This document shows positions 4,593 through 56,475 of a stretch of DNA of 64,000 nucleotides, piece after piece. Numbering within the stretch: position 1 is the stretch's first letter; each line of letters opens with the position of its first letter. The notes beneath the pieces were generated by a model. That model did no database searches, had not been told where the DNA came from, and worked only from the letters and a program-made list of their open reading frames with translations. A program made the translations under genes and the position numbers. This DNA is from a phage. Where the stretch lies: assembly GCA_033664045.1 (NCBI GenBank), contig GCA_033664045.1_3674.1. One strand, given 5' to 3'.

Positions 4593-4886
4593 TCAAGACT
4601 TTTTAGTCTTTCTTGGAGAGCTTTTTGTTGATCTTTTTCTTTTGTGGTAAATTCCAAGTGCAGCATTTTCTTGGGCACACGTTTTAACGGTTTTTAGATC
4701 AGATCTTTCAGCTTTAGGTAGATTAAGCTCCCACCAACCCAACCAGTAAAGCTCTGATTCCGACAGCTGCTCAGATTCAGCCTTCCGATACAAGGCTTGC
4801 ATACCTCTGATGATATCGTCCAGAGGTGTATCGAATACAAAAGCTGTCTTATCGAATTTCTCTTTTACAGGTCTCTTAGCCATCAA
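4593..4886 (-). CDS. hypothetical protein (97 aa, basic C-terminus)
   Basis: ORF in operon context; lysine-rich tail. Confidence 0.35.
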   Translation of the reverse strand: MMAKRPVKEKFDKTAFVFDTPLDDIIRGMQALYRKAESEQLSESELYWLGWWELNLPKAERSDLKTVKTCAQENAALGIYHKRKRSTKSSPRKTKKS

Positions 4887-5391
4887 GGTAACCCTCTATC
4901 CACGAAAAGTCAGTCTTCCATTCTGGAACTTTACTAAGCTCACGCCACTCTGCAAAGCAGTCTCGGTAATACGCCTCTGCCATACCTTTGGTGATCTTAT
5001 TCACCTTAGCCAACTGATTAACTGCCTGAGCATACTTTCCACGGATATTTGCTAACCCAGGATGCACCGATGTGTGACAGTCTGGGCACAACGCTATCAG
5101 TCCGACAAGCCGGATCACCCCCTCCTCGAAAGTGTAAAGTTCATGACACTCCACTGGGTGTTTGCTGCCTTTACCGCCGCACACCTCACAGGTGTAGTTG
5201 GCTTCTCTATAGCACTTCTTGCGGATCTTATCCCACTCACTCTTCTTCACAGCGTTTCGTAGGTTATTATACCAAGCTGTTTCTGGGATCAGTTGCACAA
5301 TAAGCCTGCGTTCAGACTTCATTAAACGTCCGTCTTCCACGTGTTCTCCCTCATTCAAAGAAATGGGTGCGAGGGCAGGAACCTGCCTCAC
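4876..5391 (-). CDS. HNH-like zinc-binding nuclease-fold protein, putative
   Basis: CEVCGG...ECHELY...LCPDCH cysteine/histidine arrangement. Confidence 0.4.
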   Translation of the reverse strand: MRQVPALAPISLNEGEHVEDGRLMKSERRLIVQLIPETAWYNNLRNAVKKSEWDKIRKKCYREANYTCEVCGGKGSKHPVECHELYTFEEGVIRLVGLIALCPDCHTSVHPGLANIRGKYAQAVNQLAKVNKITKGMAEAYYRDCFAEWRELSKVPEWKTDFSWIEGYLDG

Positions 5392-5557
5392 CTTGTTTCA
5401 CAAGCTCGTAGAGCTCACCTTGGCTTGTCTCATAAAGGCAAATACGTTTACCATTGTCCCGATATACATCGACAAGATACGCTGTTTCACCTGCAAACAC
5501 GACACCACAGGCCAGACATGCCGCCATGAACAAAATTGCCAACAGAAAATCTTTCAT
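5351..5557 (-). CDS. small secreted/periplasmic protein (68 aa)
   Basis: N-terminal signal-peptide-like LLAILFMAACLACGVVFAGE; lies immediately downstream of endolysin. Confidence 0.4.
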   Translation of the reverse strand: MKDFLLAILFMAACLACGVVFAGETAYLVDVYRDNGKRICLYETSQGELYELVKQGEAGSCPRTHFFE

Positions 5558-5620
5558 GGTTAAACCCCCTCAAACATTTTATGAGGTGACAATACCACTT
5601 CCGTGTGGTTATGTCAATGA

Positions 5621-6091
5621 TCAATCCAGGACAACACCGCCTGCCTTTTTAAACACCTCGATCAACTTCTCAATCTTCTGTTCATGCTGACCATATCCAG
5701 CACCAGGTAACGAAGCCCAACGGGAACGGCATTTGTGGATAGCTTCGTGGATACGCCCTTCGTCAATGTCGGAGAGAGCCTTGCACTCACGGATCAGTTG
5801 CAACGCAATCTTGTCCTGACTGGCAGGGCCAAAATCTGGTAATCCTAGCTGTTTCATATAGTGTTTAGCAAACTTCTCCAAAATCTGGTAACGCCCAGCA
5901 GCGGAGGAGGTAAGTTTGGCATTTAGCTTAACGTAAACACCGGGATGCTTGCTGTAATCGCTGAACAGCTTGCCACCGACTATGACATCGTATCCCCGAT
6001 CCTTGGTAGGTTGTCTACCATTATCTGTACCTTCTGAATATGCGATCATATCCAAGAAAGCTTTTCGTTGAACGTTTTTATCAAGTTTCAT
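5621..6091 (-). CDS. endolysin, lambda R-type lytic transglycosylase
   Basis: Near-colinear similarity to lambda R as recalled: QRKAFLDMIAYSEGTDNGRQ...GYDVIVGG...AGRYQ...WASLPGAGYGQ; RBS GGAGAG 8 nt upstream. Confidence 0.9.
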   Translation of the reverse strand: MKLDKNVQRKAFLDMIAYSEGTDNGRQPTKDRGYDVIVGGKLFSDYSKHPGVYVKLNAKLTSSAAGRYQILEKFAKHYMKQLGLPDFGPASQDKIALQLIRECKALSDIDEGRIHEAIHKCRSRWASLPGAGYGQHEQKIEKLIEVFKKAGGVVLD

Positions 6092-6159
6092 TTTTCATAC
6101 TCTCCAGTTTACTCATAACTAGCCCGATCAACAACACTGCATAGTGTGGTTATGTAGGT

Positions 6160-6188
6160 GCCAATTGAAAAACCATCATTCAATTGGC
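6160..6188. promoter_or_regulatory. perfect 10-bp inverted repeat between ligase and endolysin genes
   Basis: GCCAATTGAA-n9-TTCAATTGGC; no following U-tract, so operator or RNA stem-loop is more likely than a terminator. Confidence 0.35.
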
Positions 6189-6215
6189 TACCGTTACCTA
6201 CTAAACCATCCTACA

Positions 6216-7499
6216 TCATTCCAGAACCTCCCAAGTGTCTGGGTTAACATTTCGGACGCAGATACCGACAGGGAATTGGTAGTTGTTGTCTTCTGTCCTT
6301 GCTTGGTATTTGAAGGTGACAAACTTGCCGATCATTTCCTGCATCCTGTCATAGCTACGCTCCTCGTGCGTGCCTTTCATCTTCATTTTAACAACAACAC
6401 CTTCCTTGTCAACACAGATAAGAACACCTTCATCATTCTTATCTTTCTCAACGTCAATAACTTTCACCTCTGCGTCGTTGAACTTTTTCCATTTCAATGC
6501 TTCAGATGTTCGCTGACCATACTCATACTTACCACAGAAGTTACGCATAATGGTACCTTCATATCCTTCGGACATGAATATACCAACAGATTCTTCGCAA
6601 TGATCAACTGTGTACGCAAGCTCTGCGTCAACAACCTTGATATGGTCAAGCATCAGGGTGGTAACGGTATCCTCTGCATCCATAAGATCTTTGCAGCGTC
6701 CAGACTCTGTTTCTGGATCCCACCACACCTTGTCGCTAGGAATATCAAAAATGTGATACTCCAGATCGTAGCTACAGTACCCACCGTAACGCAAATCATC
6801 ACGAACAGGCTCAACATCGACAGGAATATCTACCTTGTTGAAGTTTTTGTACGTTGATAAGCCTGCCTTAATTGCGGCATGACGGCGTTTTTTATCTGCC
6901 TCATAGTCTTTATCGATCTCGGCCTGAATCTCTTCCTGTGTGCGCCACCGTTTAGCAAGAGACACTATTTTCTGCAAAGGAAGACCATGAATGTATAGTT
7001 CCCCATCAAGTTGTTTAATCCCAGTGGTAGAATGGAAAGAACGAAGTTGCTCTAAAAGCTTTCCTTGAATAGGGTAGGACTTATTGCCACGGGAAATAAA
7101 TTTAGGCTCACCATTTTGGAAAACAACAAGCAGACGAAGGCCATCTAACTTACGCAAGATCCAGCAAGGTAATTTAAGTGCCTTGCCACGCTTCAGATAG
7201 TCATGCACCAGCATGGGTAAAAGGTCAACACCCTGCTCGCAATCTTCCATGTTTTCAACATACCCCAGACGGACTTGTTTTTCCCACTTACTGATCGCTT
7301 CCAGCTCGGCCTGTTGCTCAGCTGTAGTCTCGTTGGCACGACCTACGTTCTTAGGTGTGCATACCGTCTCTTTGTACTGCAATTTACCGTCAAGCTTGCC
7401 AAACTCTACGATAACCTTTTCGCCATCTGTAAATACTTTCCATTGCTGGTAACTTCCATCTTTATTCAGTGCGTACAGTGTTGTTTTGATCTGATGCAT
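6216..7499 (-). CDS. ATP-dependent DNA ligase
   Basis: Adenylation motif I ILRKLDGLRLL (KxDGxR) plus EGTIMR and KWKKF motifs; length suits NTase plus OB domain. Confidence 0.85.
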   Translation of the reverse strand: MHQIKTTLYALNKDGSYQQWKVFTDGEKVIVEFGKLDGKLQYKETVCTPKNVGRANETTAEQQAELEAISKWEKQVRLGYVENMEDCEQGVDLLPMLVHDYLKRGKALKLPCWILRKLDGLRLLVVFQNGEPKFISRGNKSYPIQGKLLEQLRSFHSTTGIKQLDGELYIHGLPLQKIVSLAKRWRTQEEIQAEIDKDYEADKKRRHAAIKAGLSTYKNFNKVDIPVDVEPVRDDLRYGGYCSYDLEYHIFDIPSDKVWWDPETESGRCKDLMDAEDTVTTLMLDHIKVVDAELAYTVDHCEESVGIFMSEGYEGTIMRNFCGKYEYGQRTSEALKWKKFNDAEVKVIDVEKDKNDEGVLICVDKEGVVVKMKMKGTHEERSYDRMQEMIGKFVTFKYQARTEDNNYQFPVGICVRNVNPDTWEVLE

Positions 7500-12374: not shown

Positions 12375-12446
12375 ACCAGTAAAAACTTAAATATCTGTAC
12401 TATAAGGATTCGTATGTTTTATGTTCACTATGAAACAGAGGTTAGT

Positions 12447-12536
12447 AACTGTCCGTGATACGGACACTACTGTCCGTCACGCGGACACATCTGCCCGTAA
12501 TACGGACACTAACTGTCCGTGATACGGACACATAAA
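12447..12536. repeat. four phased copies of 15-bp palindrome GTCCGT-N3-ACGGAC
   Basis: Copies at 12451-12465, 12472-12486, 12493-12507 (GCCCGT variant), 12515-12529; spacing 21-22 bp. Confidence 0.85.
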
Positions 12537-16147: not shown

Positions 16148-16546
16148 ATGATTTCAGTTTTAACATGGCTGAGTAGGTATAAAGGGATCATAAAAGGTTT
16201 AGTTTTTGCAGCTGCGATAGGTACAGCTTATCTTGGGGCCGTGTATTGGTTTAACTCCAAGCTTAATGATGCCTACCAGGAGGGTGTGTCAGCAACAGAG
16301 TTAAAGTGGGAACGGATCCTTGATCAGCAACAAAAGCAGGCCGACAAAATTAAAATGGGCCACGCAGAGGAGGTTAAAAACCTTGAAAAATCCCTTTCTG
16401 ACCTGCAGGATAAATTAAATATGGCTGAGAAGGCAGGTAAAGAAAAGCAGATTATTTACCTCCAATCACCTGAGGGTAAGAAGTCAACACTCCCTGATCA
16501 GCTTATAGATATTTATAATGAGAGTATTAATCAGGAGGGTCGATGA
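16148..16546 (+). CDS. i-spanin (Rz-like), putative
   Basis: N-terminal TM helix GLVFAAAIGTAYLGAVYWF followed by charged coiled-coil-like periplasmic region; 3' end overlaps next ORF in ATGA. Confidence 0.55.
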   Translation: MISVLTWLSRYKGIIKGLVFAAAIGTAYLGAVYWFNSKLNDAYQEGVSATELKWERILDQQQKQADKIKMGHAEEVKNLEKSLSDLQDKLNMAEKAGKEKQIIYLQSPEGKKSTLPDQLIDIYNESINQEGR

Positions 16547-16830
16547 GAGTTGCTGCACTGTTTATTGTGTGCTTGTTATTGTGTGGGTGTGCAACCAGCG
16601 TTGAGAGAGAATACAAGATTGACCCTCCAGATGTAGGAAGGTTGATTGTTAAACCCCCGGAAGGTGCCATGAAACCACCTGCTAAAGCTATGCCTTTGAA
16701 GAAAGGTGCGCCAGATGCAGTGAATTCTGGCATTATGAGGGATAATAATCTGTCTTGTAGCAATGATAGAGCTAAATTGATCATTTTGCAAGACTACATT
16801 AGAACACTGTTTCCAAAGGAGAGAGGTTAA
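16543..16830 (+). CDS. o-spanin (Rz1-like lipoprotein), putative
   Basis: Signal peptide with Cys-containing lipobox-like LLLCGCATS, proline-rich mature part (KPPEGAMKPPAKAMP); 4-bp overlap with i-spanin. Confidence 0.55.
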   Translation: MRVAALFIVCLLLCGCATSVEREYKIDPPDVGRLIVKPPEGAMKPPAKAMPLKKGAPDAVNSGIMRDNNLSCSNDRAKLIILQDYIRTLFPKERG

Positions 16831-55027: not shown

Positions 55028-55342
55028 GTGGAGTTGGATTTGGCGGCATTGTACGGTATCTGCATGGGTACCGTTGTCCCGATCTGTGTATGGGCTTTCA
55101 ACCAGTGGCACACCAAATGGAAAGGCATTTCCAAGAGGTTGGATGAACTGGAGAAAGACCTCATCTTAGTGAAAAACAGTATGGTTACAAAAGATAAACT
55201 TGATTCCGTTATCGAGACCCGGTTAAGCAAGCTAGAGGCCGATATTAACGACCTTAAGCAGGATGTCAGGACAGATGTCTCCGGTATCCGAGCTGATGTA
55301 CAAAAGATTTTGCACATGCTTGTAGAGCATAGTAAAAGGTAA
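55028..55342 (+). CDS. small membrane/coiled-coil protein (candidate holin or antiholin, or fibre chaperone)
   Basis: N-terminal TM segment LAALYGICMGTVVPICVWAF followed by coiled-coil-like charged region. Confidence 0.3.
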   Translation: MELDLAALYGICMGTVVPICVWAFNQWHTKWKGISKRLDELEKDLILVKNSMVTKDKLDSVIETRLSKLEADINDLKQDVRTDVSGIRADVQKILHMLVEHSKR

Positions 55343-55431: not shown

Positions 55432-56475
55432 ATGACTAAACCAGTTATCCCTCTTGATATTTGGGCCAATCAGGATGTTGTGCTTGAAAATACGGGAGAA
55501 TTGAATAAGTCCCAACCAAAAAAAGAAGAGAGATTGAAAGGTTGGGATATGACACAAAGAGTGGCATGTGAAGTTGTTAACTTTGAACTTCACATGCTTT
55601 CTGCGTGGTTAAAGCATTTAACAGAAGATGTTGTCCCAGGATGGGATAATAGATTCTTAAGGGTCACTAATAATCTGGCAGACGTTCCAGACAAAGCTGC
55701 TGCACGTCAAGTTCTCAATGTATACTCGCCTGAAGAAATGGATGACCTTTATGTTGACAAGGCTGGAGACACAATGATCCAGACTCAAACTTTAGGTCTT
55801 CAAAGAATCGAGTTTGCATCCGCGTCAACAGACAATGCGGCGATATACACCACCATAACTCCAGACAAGACGACAATGGATTTCTGGATTATGGACAACA
55901 TCGGTGGTGCTGACGGCACAGATCTTGATGATCCTTCTCACCAAATAGACGGGTTCCGTTGGAGATTTCAACCTTCTGGTGGGCAGCCTGTGTTTTCGGC
56001 TATGAAGCTCAATGCTATAACTGCCAACCGTGCAAGACTGGCTATCCAAGGGAATCTTGAATGCAACGATGCAAAAAGTTCCTCTGCAAATGCCAATTCG
56101 GTCACGATACCAAGAGCCGCTGTTAACGGACAACAATCCTGCGGAAGCGCTCAAATAGGTGGAAGAGTAGATTGTAACGATAAAACCGCCAGAGGTCAAT
56201 ATGCAACAGTTGGTGGAAGAAACGTGGTCCGCAGGGTAAATGGTAGTAGCGCAGACAGTAGTGGTAACCTTACTATTCCTATGCCTAGTAGGGGTGTTGA
56301 AGATGTAAGGATAGCAAACCGTTTCAGAACCACCTACAGAGAATCAAGAGTATACCCTGGGCATGTAATGTGCTCCGGCAATTACGCCTATAAACACCCG
56401 TATCAGGGCGACTATTGGACTGGAGCTATTCAAAAATTTGTAAACGGTCAATGGATCACCATATCTTATGCTTAA
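55432..56475 (+). CDS. tail fibre protein (paralog B)
   Basis: GDTMIQTQTLGLQRIEF motif and conserved C-terminus IQKFVNGQWITISYA; colinear with 53377 but diverged centrally. Confidence 0.7.
   Translation: MTKPVIPLDIWANQDVVLENTGELNKSQPKKEERLKGWDMTQRVACEVVNFELHMLSAWLKHLTEDVVPGWDNRFLRVTNNLADVPDKAAARQVLNVYSPEEMDDLYVDKAGDTMIQTQTLGLQRIEFASASTDNAAIYTTITPDKTTMDFWIMDNIGGADGTDLDDPSHQIDGFRWRFQPSGGQPVFSAMKLNAITANRARLAIQGNLECNDAKSSSANANSVTIPRAAVNGQQSCGSAQIGGRVDCNDKTARGQYATVGGRNVVRRVNGSSADSSGNLTIPMPSRGVEDVRIANRFRTTYRESRVYPGHVMCSGNYAYKHPYQGDYWTGAIQKFVNGQWITISYA

What the first reader, a model, noticed from the sequence alone, without database searches (positions are those of the whole stretch)
5351..6188. 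Lambda R-type endolysin isolated from holin and spanins, with a small secreted protein downstream and a perfect palindrome upstream
The endolysin is unambiguous but lies in the early minus-strand block with no adjacent holin. Immediately downstream is a 68-aa ORF with a signal-peptide-like N-terminus, which might be a periplasmic regulator, a lysozyme-inhibitor-like protein or a spanin-type component. Upstream is a perfect 10-bp inverted repeat GCCAATTGAA-n9-TTCAATTGGC with no U-tract. The spanin pair is 10 kb away at 16148-16830.
Basis: partly seen in the sequence, partly recalled or inferred. Interest (0 to 1): 0.5.

Follow-up and report, generated by a model that had tools for sequence, protein, structure and literature searches.

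The report
rV5-type endolysin and secreted miniprotein neighbour
This is the already described lysis-enzyme locus of rV5-like E. coli phages; the small gene next to it encodes an independently transcribed, secreted 46-residue protein of unknown role, and the upstream palindrome lies in the remains of a lost membrane-protein gene.

Summary
The window is a Vequintavirus (rV5-like myophage), about 97% identical to more than 100 sequenced phages.

- **Endolysin (5621-6091, minus strand):** a lambda R-type enzyme (E 6e-57 to PDB 1AM7) with no export signal.
- **Known layout:** its separation from the spanins (16148-16830) and from any holin was reported for rV5 in 2013 and for later relatives.
- **68-aa ORF (rV5 ORF90):** a real gene for a Sec-exported, signal-peptidase-cleaved, two-cysteine periplasmic miniprotein. 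It has its own sigma-70 promoter (rV5 P090).
- **Family:** about 40 members, all from Vequintavirinae-type phages or 120-150 kb contigs. It also occurs in genera with no endolysin nearby.
- **No coupling to the endolysin:** its variants assort freely with three interchangeable endolysin alleles. It is not a spanin or a holin, and probably not a dedicated endolysin partner.
- **Palindrome:** it lies in the decayed 5' end of a multi-pass membrane-protein gene that is intact in one metagenomic relative. It is eroded in other viable phages, has variable arm spacing and no U-tract.

The locus is ordinary and largely known. The only open question is what the miniprotein does.

The parts
5621..6091 (-). 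Soluble lambda R-type (GH104-like) endolysin, 156 aa; counterpart of rV5 gp89
   Evidence: E 6.4e-57 to PDB 1AM7 over residues 4-154, SEGT catalytic motif kept. phrog_90 endolysin. No N-terminal hydrophobic segment. Annotated endolysin/lysozyme in more than 100 relatives.
5351..5557 (-). 68-aa precursor of a secreted miniprotein (rV5 ORF90, phrog_4641). Signal peptide = codons 1-22 (5492-5557); mature 46 aa = 5354-5491
   Evidence: Alignments A1 and A4 show a variable N-terminal hydrophobic region, a conserved AxA-type cleavage site, and a conserved mature part with 2 invariant Cys. Codon differences in the mature part are mostly synonymous (9:0; 6-15 against 0-2), while in the signal part non-synonymous differences equal or exceed synonymous ones in most comparisons. 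AF2 pLDDT 78.8: one helix plus four beta strands.
5589..5617 (-). Sigma-70-type promoter for the small ORF (TTGACA-17-TATTGT with TG extension); equals rV5 P090
   Evidence: Promoter scan. The same element is present in L005, L011, L012-15, L023 and L024. In other genera the equivalent site holds an intrinsic terminator followed by TTGACA/TTGACT-16-17-TATAAT or TATGCT. Listed as P090 in rV5 Table S4.
6160..6188 (.). Perfect 10-bp inverted repeat with a 9-nt spacer, inside the former 5' end of a lost membrane-protein gene
   Evidence: The 3' arm corresponds to codons F-Q-L-A of the relic. Variants in relatives: loop of 8-10 nt; folding energy from -18 down to -5 kcal/mol.
6081..6215 (-). Ligase-endolysin spacer: deletion relic of a multi-pass membrane-protein gene. 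5' remnant about 6152-6215; 3' remnant about 6081-6141, in frame as ..AVLLIGLVMSKLESMKNET*
   Evidence: Alignment to the intact 164-aa ORF of L011 (3955-4449), which overlaps the endolysin start. The C-terminus of that ORF is homologous to the mEp554 protein up to residue 163. Longer relics are seen in FV3, C11, FFH2, JEP1 and HMD-6.
6216..7499 (-). ATP-dependent DNA ligase, the gene upstream of the endolysin
   Evidence: Pfam DNA_ligase_A_M and DNA_ligase_OB_2; annotation in relatives.
4876..5340 (-). HNH endonuclease gene downstream of the small ORF
   Evidence: phrog_5200, 3.5e-72. Annotated in relatives. 40-51% identical homologues sit at the same relative place in distant genera.
16148..16546 (+). 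i-spanin (132 aa, N-terminal membrane segment)
   Evidence: phrog_4297 Rz-like spanin, 1.4e-49. Member of the rV5 spanin family in Kongari 2018.
16543..16830 (+). o-spanin (95 aa, lipobox LCGC); its start overlaps the i-spanin stop
   Evidence: phrog_1267, 1.3e-22; sequence.

Best explanation
The region is the standard endolysin locus of rV5-like (Vequintavirus) myophages. Its three features sit together by position, not as a functional unit.

1. Endolysin. The enzyme is a cytoplasmic lambda R-type lytic transglycosylase that needs a holin encoded elsewhere. rV5 ORF129, a published candidate, lies outside this window. The gene is the last one in the ligase transcription unit. It behaves as an exchangeable module: three allele classes (156, 157-159 and 165 aa; 46-69% identical) occur in otherwise near-identical flanks. 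Allele B is sometimes accompanied by an HNH endonuclease gene directly upstream.

2. Small ORF. The 68-aa ORF starts its own sigma-70 transcription unit. It encodes a Sec-exported precursor that signal peptidase I probably cleaves after VFA22. This releases a 46-residue, acidic, beta-rich periplasmic miniprotein with one probable disulfide. The family is confined to Vequintavirinae and is older than the link with the endolysin. Inferred, not shown: it acts early in the periplasm on a target shared across the subfamily, for example in envelope protection or superinfection exclusion, rather than in the holin-endolysin-spanin pathway.

3. Palindrome. It lies in the decayed 5' end of a multi-pass membrane-protein gene. 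It is at most a dispensable RNA hairpin.
For: Identity of the locus:
- 97% DNA identity to more than 100 Vequintavirus genomes.
- rV5 tables list gp89 lysin, the unannotated ORF90 and promoter P090.

Endolysin:
-.
- Allele classes and free assortment with small-protein types I, II and III.
- Allele C is found in 20 GenBank relatives.
- An HNH gene lies upstream of allele B in HMD-6, L007 and L013, and is truncated in JEP1.

Miniprotein:
- In 39 of 39 members the -1 residue is A, S or G. In 38 of 39 the -3 residue is small or aliphatic.
- Mature parts are 43-48 aa with exactly 2 Cys.
- Selection pattern: mature part conserved, signal part free to vary.
- Own promoter. In SSBI34, L016 and A73 the gene follows an intrinsic terminator and a near-consensus promoter.
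- No lambda R-type endolysin within 4-10 kb in six distant loci.
- An exhaustive HMMER search found 26 representatives. All but three weak hits (118, 512 and 2015 aa, matched only in short stretches) are stand-alone proteins of 65-91 aa.

Relic and palindrome:
-.
- Erosion of the hairpin in FFH2 (-8 kcal/mol) and C11 (-5 kcal/mol), with no compensating changes; loop of 8-10 nt.

Other lysis genes:
- rV5 ORF129 and the SleB-like gp2 have no counterpart in the window.
Against: - The endolysin-small ORF pair stays adjacent in four gene contexts, including one where the flanking genes are rearranged. That is what functional linkage would also produce.
- No experiment or dedicated predictor (SignalP, LipoP) was available. 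Export and cleavage are inferred from sequence patterns only.
- Nothing bears directly on the miniprotein's function. Fold searches were uninformative.
- Different hairpins occur just after the ligase stop in L008 (GTGCACA-ATA-TGTGCAC) and L011 (GCCCGTT-TTTC-AACGGGC). This could mean that a stem-loop at this spot is selected.
- The intact membrane-protein gene is known from a single metagenomic contig.
Confidence: 0.7

Rival explanations
1. The 68-aa protein is a periplasmic lysis regulator functionally coupled to the endolysin locus. It could be an antiholin in the manner of T4 RI, or an inhibitor of a muralytic enzyme that prevents early wall damage.
For: - Adjacency to the endolysin is kept in four contexts.
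- It is periplasmic and probably expressed early.
- rV5-like phages carry rIIA/rIIB and a Sec-exported SleB-like hydrolase that would need restraint in the periplasm.
- No holin or antiholin is firmly identified in this group.
Against: - Small-protein variants and endolysin alleles assort independently. For example, the small protein is 100% identical next to an endolysin only 52% identical.
- Distant genera keep the gene with no endolysin nearby.
- The endolysin is cytoplasmic until the holin fires, so a periplasmic partner is not obviously needed.
- There is no sequence or fold similarity to RI, Spackle, Ivy or PliC-type proteins.
Confidence: 0.17
2. The 68-aa protein is the missing holin or pinholin, or another membrane-anchored lysis protein. 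In this reading the N-terminal hydrophobic segment is an uncleaved transmembrane anchor.
For: - It is a small protein with one strongly hydrophobic segment directly next to the endolysin.
- Several depositors annotate it 'putative membrane protein'.
- The holin of this phage group is unidentified.
Against: - The hydrophobic segment is the least conserved part, in both sequence and length (19-40 aa). It always ends in an AxA-type cleavage motif.
- Non-synonymous changes concentrate there.
- The C-terminal part is acidic and beta-rich, not a basic tail.
- The gene has a sigma-70 promoter of the kind found throughout the early region.
Confidence: 0.04
3. The palindrome is a functional element. 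It could be an operator for a dimeric DNA-binding protein, or an RNA stem-loop that ends, processes or stabilises the ligase transcript or tunes endolysin translation.
For: - Perfect 10+10 bp repeat in a 124-nt spacer; -17.1 kcal/mol, z -5.7.
- Kept intact in FV3, JEP1 and HMD-6 and nearly intact in rV5.
- Unrelated hairpins occupy the same position in L008 and L011.
- T4 gene e is a precedent for hairpin control of an endolysin gene placed among early genes (from my own knowledge: McPheeters 1986).
Against: - No U-tract, and it is not in the rV5 terminator list.
- Arm spacing varies from 8 to 10 nt, which does not suit a dimeric operator.
- One or two pairs are broken without compensation in the FFH2 group and in C11, which are viable isolates.
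- It is unique in the window, so it is not part of a regulon.
- One such repeat per 64 kb is expected by chance.
- It lies 69 nt upstream of the endolysin start codon (6160 vs 6091) and about 60 nt from the RBS, so it cannot mask it.
- There is no Rfam match.
Confidence: 0.2
4. The 68-aa protein is an outer-membrane lipoprotein, either an o-spanin-like component or an Llp/Cor-type receptor blocker.
For: In the window protein the signal region contains MAAC and LAC, which look weakly like a lipobox.
Against: - Lipobox-like strings occur in only 6 of 39 members. The type II variants (L005, L012-14) have no cysteine in the signal region at all.
- A genuine spanin pair exists.
- The family spans phages reported to use different receptors (flagella or LPS), which argues against a receptor-specific blocker.
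Confidence: 0.02

Closest known systems
Phage rV5 gp89 (lysin), ORF90 and promoter P090 (Kropinski et al. 2013, PMC3606486)
   Same: This is the same locus in the type phage. The order is ligase, lysin (156 aa), a 68-aa ORF, then HNH. A promoter is predicted directly upstream of ORF90. The holin is proposed to lie elsewhere (ORF129), as in T4.
   Different: The window is a different isolate lineage (about 94% identical in the spacer, with a 10-bp rather than 9-bp stem). ORF90 was left without any annotation in that paper. The signal-peptide reading, the family definition and the relic origin of the spacer are added here.
Lambda R endolysin (lytic transglycosylase; PDB 1AM7, 3D3D)
   Same: Full-length homology (E about 1e-57), the SEGT catalytic motif, similar size, and no secretion signal.
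   Different: Lambda R lies in an S-R-Rz/Rz1 cassette expressed from the late promoter. Here the gene is alone at the end of a DNA-metabolism gene block. The spanins are 10 kb away on the other strand and no holin is adjacent.
The dispersed lysis genes of phage T4 (e, t, rI, spanins)
   Same: The endolysin gene lies among early or middle genes, far from the holin and spanins. rV5-likes also carry rIIA/rIIB.
   Different: The enzymes are unrelated (T4 E is a GH24 muramidase). The T4-type late transcription factors gp33/45/55 are absent from rV5. No RI or T homologue is known.
T4 Spackle (gp61.3) and T4 RI: small early periplasmic phage proteins
   Same: These are functional analogues only. Like them, the miniprotein is short, probably made early from a host-type promoter, and carries an N-terminal export signal.
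   Different: There is no sequence or fold similarity. The predicted fold here is four beta strands with a disulfide, whereas Spackle and RI are helical (from my own knowledge). The function here is untested.
Co-conversion of flanking genes by homing endonucleases in T-even phages (Seg and Tev enzymes)
   Same: An HNH gene sits directly upstream of one endolysin allele class. It travels with that allele into otherwise unrelated backgrounds (HMD-6 against L013: HNH 87% identical, endolysin 88% identical).
   Different: Homing activity was not shown. Alleles A and C are also exchanged without any endonuclease gene present.

Membership tests
Lambda R-type (GH104) endolysin | Full-length sequence homology to lambda R | tested here: met
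   E 6.4e-57 to 1AM7, residues 4-154 aligned. phrog_90 2e-56. The Pfam-A copy used gave no hit, although the 2013 paper cites PF00959.
Lambda R-type (GH104) endolysin | Catalytic glutamate in the SEGT motif | tested here: met
   AYSEGTD aligns with lambda AWSEGTD. The Glu is invariant across alleles A and B and kept in allele C (AEGT).
Lambda R-type (GH104) endolysin | Soluble, with no signal or SAR segment, and therefore dependent on a holin | tested here: met
   Highest 19-residue hydropathy in the N-terminal 30 windows is -0.31; the whole-protein maximum is 0.42.
Lambda R-type (GH104) endolysin | Lytic transglycosylase activity | not testable with these tools
   Requires an enzyme assay.
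Sec signal peptide cleaved by signal peptidase I | A positively charged N-terminal region, a hydrophobic core, and small residues at -3 and -1 | tested here: met
   Across 39 members: hydrophobic cores of 11-28 residues; -1 is A, S or G in 39 of 39; -3 is A, S, V, T or C in 38 of 39. Net charge of the N-terminal region is 0 in the window protein (K2, D3) and +1 to +3 in most others.
Sec signal peptide cleaved by signal peptidase I | Export and cleavage shown, or called by a trained predictor | not testable with these tools
   SignalP and LipoP were not available, and there are no experimental data.
o-spanin / bacterial lipoprotein | A conserved lipobox with an invariant Cys at +1 | tested here: not met
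   Lipobox-like strings occur in 6 of 39 members; most members have no Cys in the signal region.
o-spanin / bacterial lipoprotein | Paired with, or embedded in, an i-spanin gene | tested here: not met
   The neighbours are the endolysin and HNH genes. The true pair is at 16148-16830.
Holin | Conserved transmembrane segment(s) and a charged, usually basic, cytoplasmic C-terminus | tested here: not met
   The hydrophobic segment is hypervariable and is followed by a cleavage motif. The C-terminal 46 residues have 8 acidic and 5 basic residues (sequence).
Intrinsic (rho-independent) terminator | A GC-rich stem directly followed by a U-tract | tested here: not met
   The stem is 40% GC and is followed by ACCTACATAACC. 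The scan did not call it. All 20 rV5 terminators in Table S4 have a T-rich run (ranging from ATTTT to TATCTTTT) after the stem.
VUT / YhhQ-type transporter (proposed origin of the spacer relic) | A match to the family profile | tested here: inconclusive
   The intact L011 ORF has 5-6 hydrophobic segments and matches phrog_4899 (unknown function) at 1.4e-12. It has no Pfam or NCBIfam hit. Only depositors' labels on homologues 25-32% identical say 'VUT family'.

The most novel reading that the evidence does not exclude
The 46-residue periplasmic miniprotein (the rV5 ORF90 family) may be a new kind of early phage effector that restrains a muralytic enzyme in the periplasm. One possible target is the phage's own Sec-exported SleB-like hydrolase (rV5 gp2), which is conserved across the same subfamily. 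Another is the tail lysozyme of superinfecting phages. Alternatively it could act as an RI-like antiholin and so set lysis timing in a phage group whose holin is still unknown.
Probability: 0.15. Interest if true: 0.5.

Novelty: already known. Interest (0 to 1): 0.2.

Why it matters
It matters little as it stands. The layout has been published for rV5 and its relatives, and the window is about 97% identical to many sequenced phages.

The useful results are clarifications:
- The small neighbour is a secreted miniprotein with its own promoter. It is not a spanin, a holin or a co-evolving endolysin partner.
- The palindrome sits in a gene relic.
- The endolysin is a freely exchanged module.

If the miniprotein proved to control wall-degrading enzymes or lysis timing, it would help explain how rV5-like therapeutic and typing phages lyse cells when no holin has been firmly identified.

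Tried and rejected
- **Pfam-A and NCBIfam** on the endolysin, the small ORF and the L011 membrane ORF gave nothing. For the endolysin this reflects the library copy used, since PDB and PHROGs give strong hits.
- **Rfam** on 4800-6600 gave only a chance lncRNA hit.
- **IMG/VR pattern scan** for the ligase 3' end returned only the contig already in hand, so spacer variants were taken from GenBank records.
- **Literature search** for Vequintavirinae transcriptomics found nothing usable.
- **Repeated regulatory motif.** I tested whether the palindrome arm recurs in the window; it does not.
- **Holin remnant.** I considered that the spacer relic was a lost holin. The intact gene in L011 overlaps the endolysin start in holin fashion, but it has 5-6 hydrophobic segments. 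Its homologues in mEp021-like and T1-like phages lie away from any annotated lysis gene (next to a methyltransferase gene or among hypothetical ORFs). The idea is left open but judged unlikely.
- **Cassette boundary.** I considered that the exact 12-mer flanking the endolysin gene marks a cassette boundary. It is not conserved upstream in JEP1 or HMD-6, so this is unresolved and may be chance.
- **Internal promoter.** I considered the TTGACA-16-TAAAAT site inside the ligase gene as the endolysin promoter. It is absent where the ligase allele or the upstream gene differs, so this is unproven.
Full report
**What the window is.** The 1.6 kb around the finding is 96.5-97.6% identical to over 90 Escherichia phages of the genus Vequintavirus (rV5-like myophages). 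Annotated relatives give the same gene order on this strand: DNA ligase, endolysin, a 68-aa hypothetical or 'putative membrane' protein, HNH endonuclease, two small ORFs, then a 5'-3' exonuclease. The window runs opposite to the rV5 reference record.

**Checking the observation.**
- ORF 5621-6091 (minus strand) is a clear homologue of lambda endolysin R. It scores E 6.4e-57 to PDB 1AM7 across residues 4-154, with the SEGT catalytic motif kept, and matches phrog_90.
- The endolysin has no N-terminal hydrophobic segment. It is therefore a soluble enzyme that needs a hole-forming holin.
- The Pfam copy used here gave no hit. That is a limit of the library, not evidence against the call.
- ORF 5351-5557 (minus strand) encodes 68 aa with a strongly hydrophobic N-terminus.
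- The perfect repeat GCCAATTGAA-n9-TTCAATTGGC is at 6160-6188. It is unique in the window and has no T-run after it.
- The spanin pair at 16148-16546 and 16543-16830 (plus strand) is confirmed by PHROGs and belongs to the published rV5 spanin family.
- The gene on the other side of the endolysin is the ligase, so no holin is adjacent.

**This layout is already published.**
- The rV5 genome paper describes gp89 as the lysin. It found no holin homologue and proposed the 78-aa, two-TMD ORF129, 22 kb away, as a holin separated from the lysin 'as in T4'.
- Its tables list ORF90 (68 aa, no annotation) and a promoter P090 directly upstream of it.
- Later genome notes for LL12 and Gotham say the holin could not be identified.
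- The CB7 paper notes that the spanins sit beside the terminase gene. It also notes that a signal-peptide-bearing SleB-like hydrolase is conserved across the subfamily.
- rV5 ORF129 and the SleB-like gp2 have no counterpart in this window.

**The 68-aa ORF is a real gene for a secreted miniprotein.**
- Word-indexed and profile searches gathered 39 non-fragment family members. An exhaustive HMMER scan of 1.84 billion representatives found only 26. All but three weak hits (118, 512 and 2015 aa, matched only in short stretches) are stand-alone proteins of 65-91 aa.
- In the alignment the N-terminal part varies freely in sequence and length (19-40 residues). It always ends in a signal-peptidase-type motif: -1 is A, S or G in 39 of 39, and -3 is small or aliphatic in 38 of 39.
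- The following 43-48 residues are well conserved and contain exactly two cysteines, both invariant.
- Codon comparisons show the matching selection pattern. In the mature part, synonymous differences greatly outnumber non-synonymous ones (9:0 against L011; 6-15 against 0-2 among type II variants). In the signal part, non-synonymous differences equal or exceed synonymous ones in most comparisons.
- Lipobox-like strings occur in only 6 of 39 members, so this is not a lipoprotein or o-spanin family.
- A hypervariable hydrophobic segment followed by a cleavage site, plus an acidic C-terminal domain, also argues against a holin.
- AlphaFold (pLDDT 78.8) predicts a signal helix and four beta strands. 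No informative structural relative was found.

**The small gene is transcribed on its own.**
- A TTGACA-17-TATTGT element with a TG extension lies between the endolysin stop and the small ORF. This is rV5 P090.
- The same element occurs in L011, JEP1 and HMD-6. In the sister lineage (L005, L012-15) it reads TTGACA-17-TATACT.
- In three distant loci (Salmonella phage SSBI34, Escherichia phage A73 and the metagenomic contig L016) the homologue is preceded by a canonical intrinsic terminator and a near-consensus sigma-70 promoter. It is therefore the first gene of a transcription unit there.

**The link with the endolysin is positional.**
- The pair is adjacent in four contexts:
  1. the window type;
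  2. L011, which has an extra membrane-protein gene upstream of the endolysin;
  3. L008-10, which have a 55-nt spacer;
  4. a sister lineage in which the pair follows exonuclease and phosphoesterase genes.
- In six loci from more distant phages the small gene sits in the same ligase-to-exonuclease block. No lambda R-type endolysin lies within 4-10 kb.
- Endolysin alleles fall into three classes:
  - A: 156 aa (window, rV5, L008, L012);
  - B: 157-159 aa (L005, L013, JEP1, HMD-6);
  - C: 165 aa (L011 and 20 GenBank Vequintaviruses).
- The classes are 46-69% identical to one another. They combine freely with the three small-protein types.
- The clearest case is L011. Its small protein is 100% identical to the window's, and its HNH (97%), exonuclease (98%) and ligase (93%) are close to the window's, but its endolysin is only 52% identical.
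- A specific binding partner would be expected to co-vary, and this one does not.
- Allele B is often preceded by an HNH endonuclease gene (HMD-6, L007, L013; truncated in JEP1). This fits spread of the allele by endonuclease-driven co-conversion. That step is inference.

**The spacer and its palindrome.**
- In L011 a 164-aa ORF with 5-6 hydrophobic segments fills the ligase-endolysin gap. It overlaps the endolysin start (ATGA).
- The window's 124-nt spacer aligns to the first ~45 nt of that ORF (plus the short stretch between the ligase stop and its start codon) and to its last 55 or so nt. It still reads in frame as MMVFQLAPT* and ..AVLLIGLVMSKLESMKNET*.
- The ORF's C-terminus is homologous to a protein of mEp554 up to residue 163. 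The window therefore carries a deletion relic, not the ancestral state.
- FV3, C11, FFH2, JEP1 and HMD-6 keep longer relics.
- Homologues are labelled 'VUT family' by some depositors, but no profile confirmed this.
- The palindrome's 3' arm is the F-Q-L-A codons of the relic.
- Among relatives the loop is 8, 9 or 10 nt. rV5 has a 9-bp stem. FFH2 has one unpaired position and C11 two, with no compensating change. Predicted stability falls from about -18 to -5 kcal/mol.
- The palindrome is not in the rV5 terminator list, has no Rfam match, and is not repeated elsewhere.
- One such repeat per 64 kb is expected by chance.
- The only point in its favour is that unrelated hairpins sit just after the ligase stop in L008 and L011. 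I rate a function, most plausibly an RNA stem-loop, at about 0.2.

**How it most likely works.**
- Shown:
  - the identity and solubility of the endolysin;
  - the coding status, signal-peptide pattern and narrow distribution of the small protein;
  - the conserved promoter motif;
  - the independent assortment of endolysin and small-protein variants;
  - the relic origin of the spacer.
- Inferred: the endolysin is made from the ligase transcription unit and waits in the cytoplasm for a holin encoded elsewhere. The small protein is made early from host-type promoter P090, exported by Sec, cleaved after VFA22 and oxidised to a disulfide-bonded periplasmic peptide.
- Speculative: it acts on a target common to the whole subfamily, in envelope protection or superinfection exclusion. 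A role as a restraint on the exported SleB-like hydrolase, or as an antiholin, cannot be excluded.

**Verdict.** The spanin-type suggestion is rejected, and the idea of a regulator specific to this endolysin is unlikely. Interest is low. The one open question is what the ORF90 miniprotein does.

Noticed in passing
window 55028-55342 (+): A 104-aa ORF with one N-terminal membrane segment and a coiled-coil-like C-terminus (phrog_5345, unknown; rV5 ORF31 'membrane protein, 1 TMD'). It lies between tail-fibre genes, a position that recalls the T4 t and T7 17.5 holin genes. It is an untested holin candidate inside this window.
   Followed up: partly
L011 3955-4449 (IMGVR_UViG_3300010279_000001): An intact 164-aa multi-pass membrane-protein gene lies between ligase and endolysin and overlaps the endolysin start. 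It was found only in this metagenomic Vequintavirus; none of the GenBank Vequintaviruses has it. Its closest homologues (about 36% identity) are in mEp021-like phages.
   Followed up: partly
window 5621-6091; L023 1987-2753; L024 1989-3181; L011 4439-4936: The endolysin gene is a polymorphic hot spot within the genus. Three allele classes (46-69% identical) occur in flanks that are at least 95% identical. Allele B comes with a full (HMD-6) or truncated (JEP1) HNH endonuclease gene inserted exactly between the ribosome-binding site and the endolysin start.
   Followed up: partly
window 6144-6155 and 5603-5614 (-): The exact 12-mer ACATAACCACAC occurs in both spacers flanking the endolysin gene. 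The downstream copy is part of promoter P090. The naive chance of this is about 5e-4, but the upstream copy is not conserved in JEP1 or HMD-6. Unexplained.
   Followed up: partly
window 6385-6412 (-): A near-consensus promoter-like site (TTGACA-16-TAAAAT with TGT before the -10 hexamer) lies inside the 3' end of the ligase gene, about 300 nt upstream of the endolysin. It resembles the rV5 'late' motif TggTAaAAtA. It is absent where the ligase allele or the upstream gene differs.
   Followed up: partly
window 12446-12531: Four tandem 21-22-nt repeats (TAACTGTCCGTGATACGGACAC), each with a small internal palindrome, lie in a stretch with no obvious gene. They may be iterons or binding sites.
   Followed up: no
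window 55564-55597: The only other perfect inverted repeat of at least 10 bp with a short loop in the window. It has 12-bp arms and a 10-nt loop, and lies just downstream of the 104-aa membrane ORF.
   Followed up: no
window 4876-5340 (-): The HNH endonuclease gene next to the small ORF has 40-51% identical homologues at the same relative position, just upstream of the exonuclease gene, in distant Vequintavirinae. It looks like a fixed core gene rather than a mobile homing endonuclease.
   Followed up: partly
GenBank MG0656xx records matched: About 19 records named 'Campylobacter phage' are roughly 97% identical to E. coli Vequintaviruses; the one opened (C11, MG065652) is marked UNVERIFIED. 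The host labels are probably wrong.
   Followed up: no
rV5 NC_011041 1980-2480 (outside the window): rV5-like phages carry a second wall hydrolase (Hydrolase_2, SleB-like) with a cleavable-looking signal peptide, next to rIIA. RefSeq also labels it 'endolysin'. How an exported hydrolase is kept harmless until lysis is not explained in the papers read here.
   Followed up: partly
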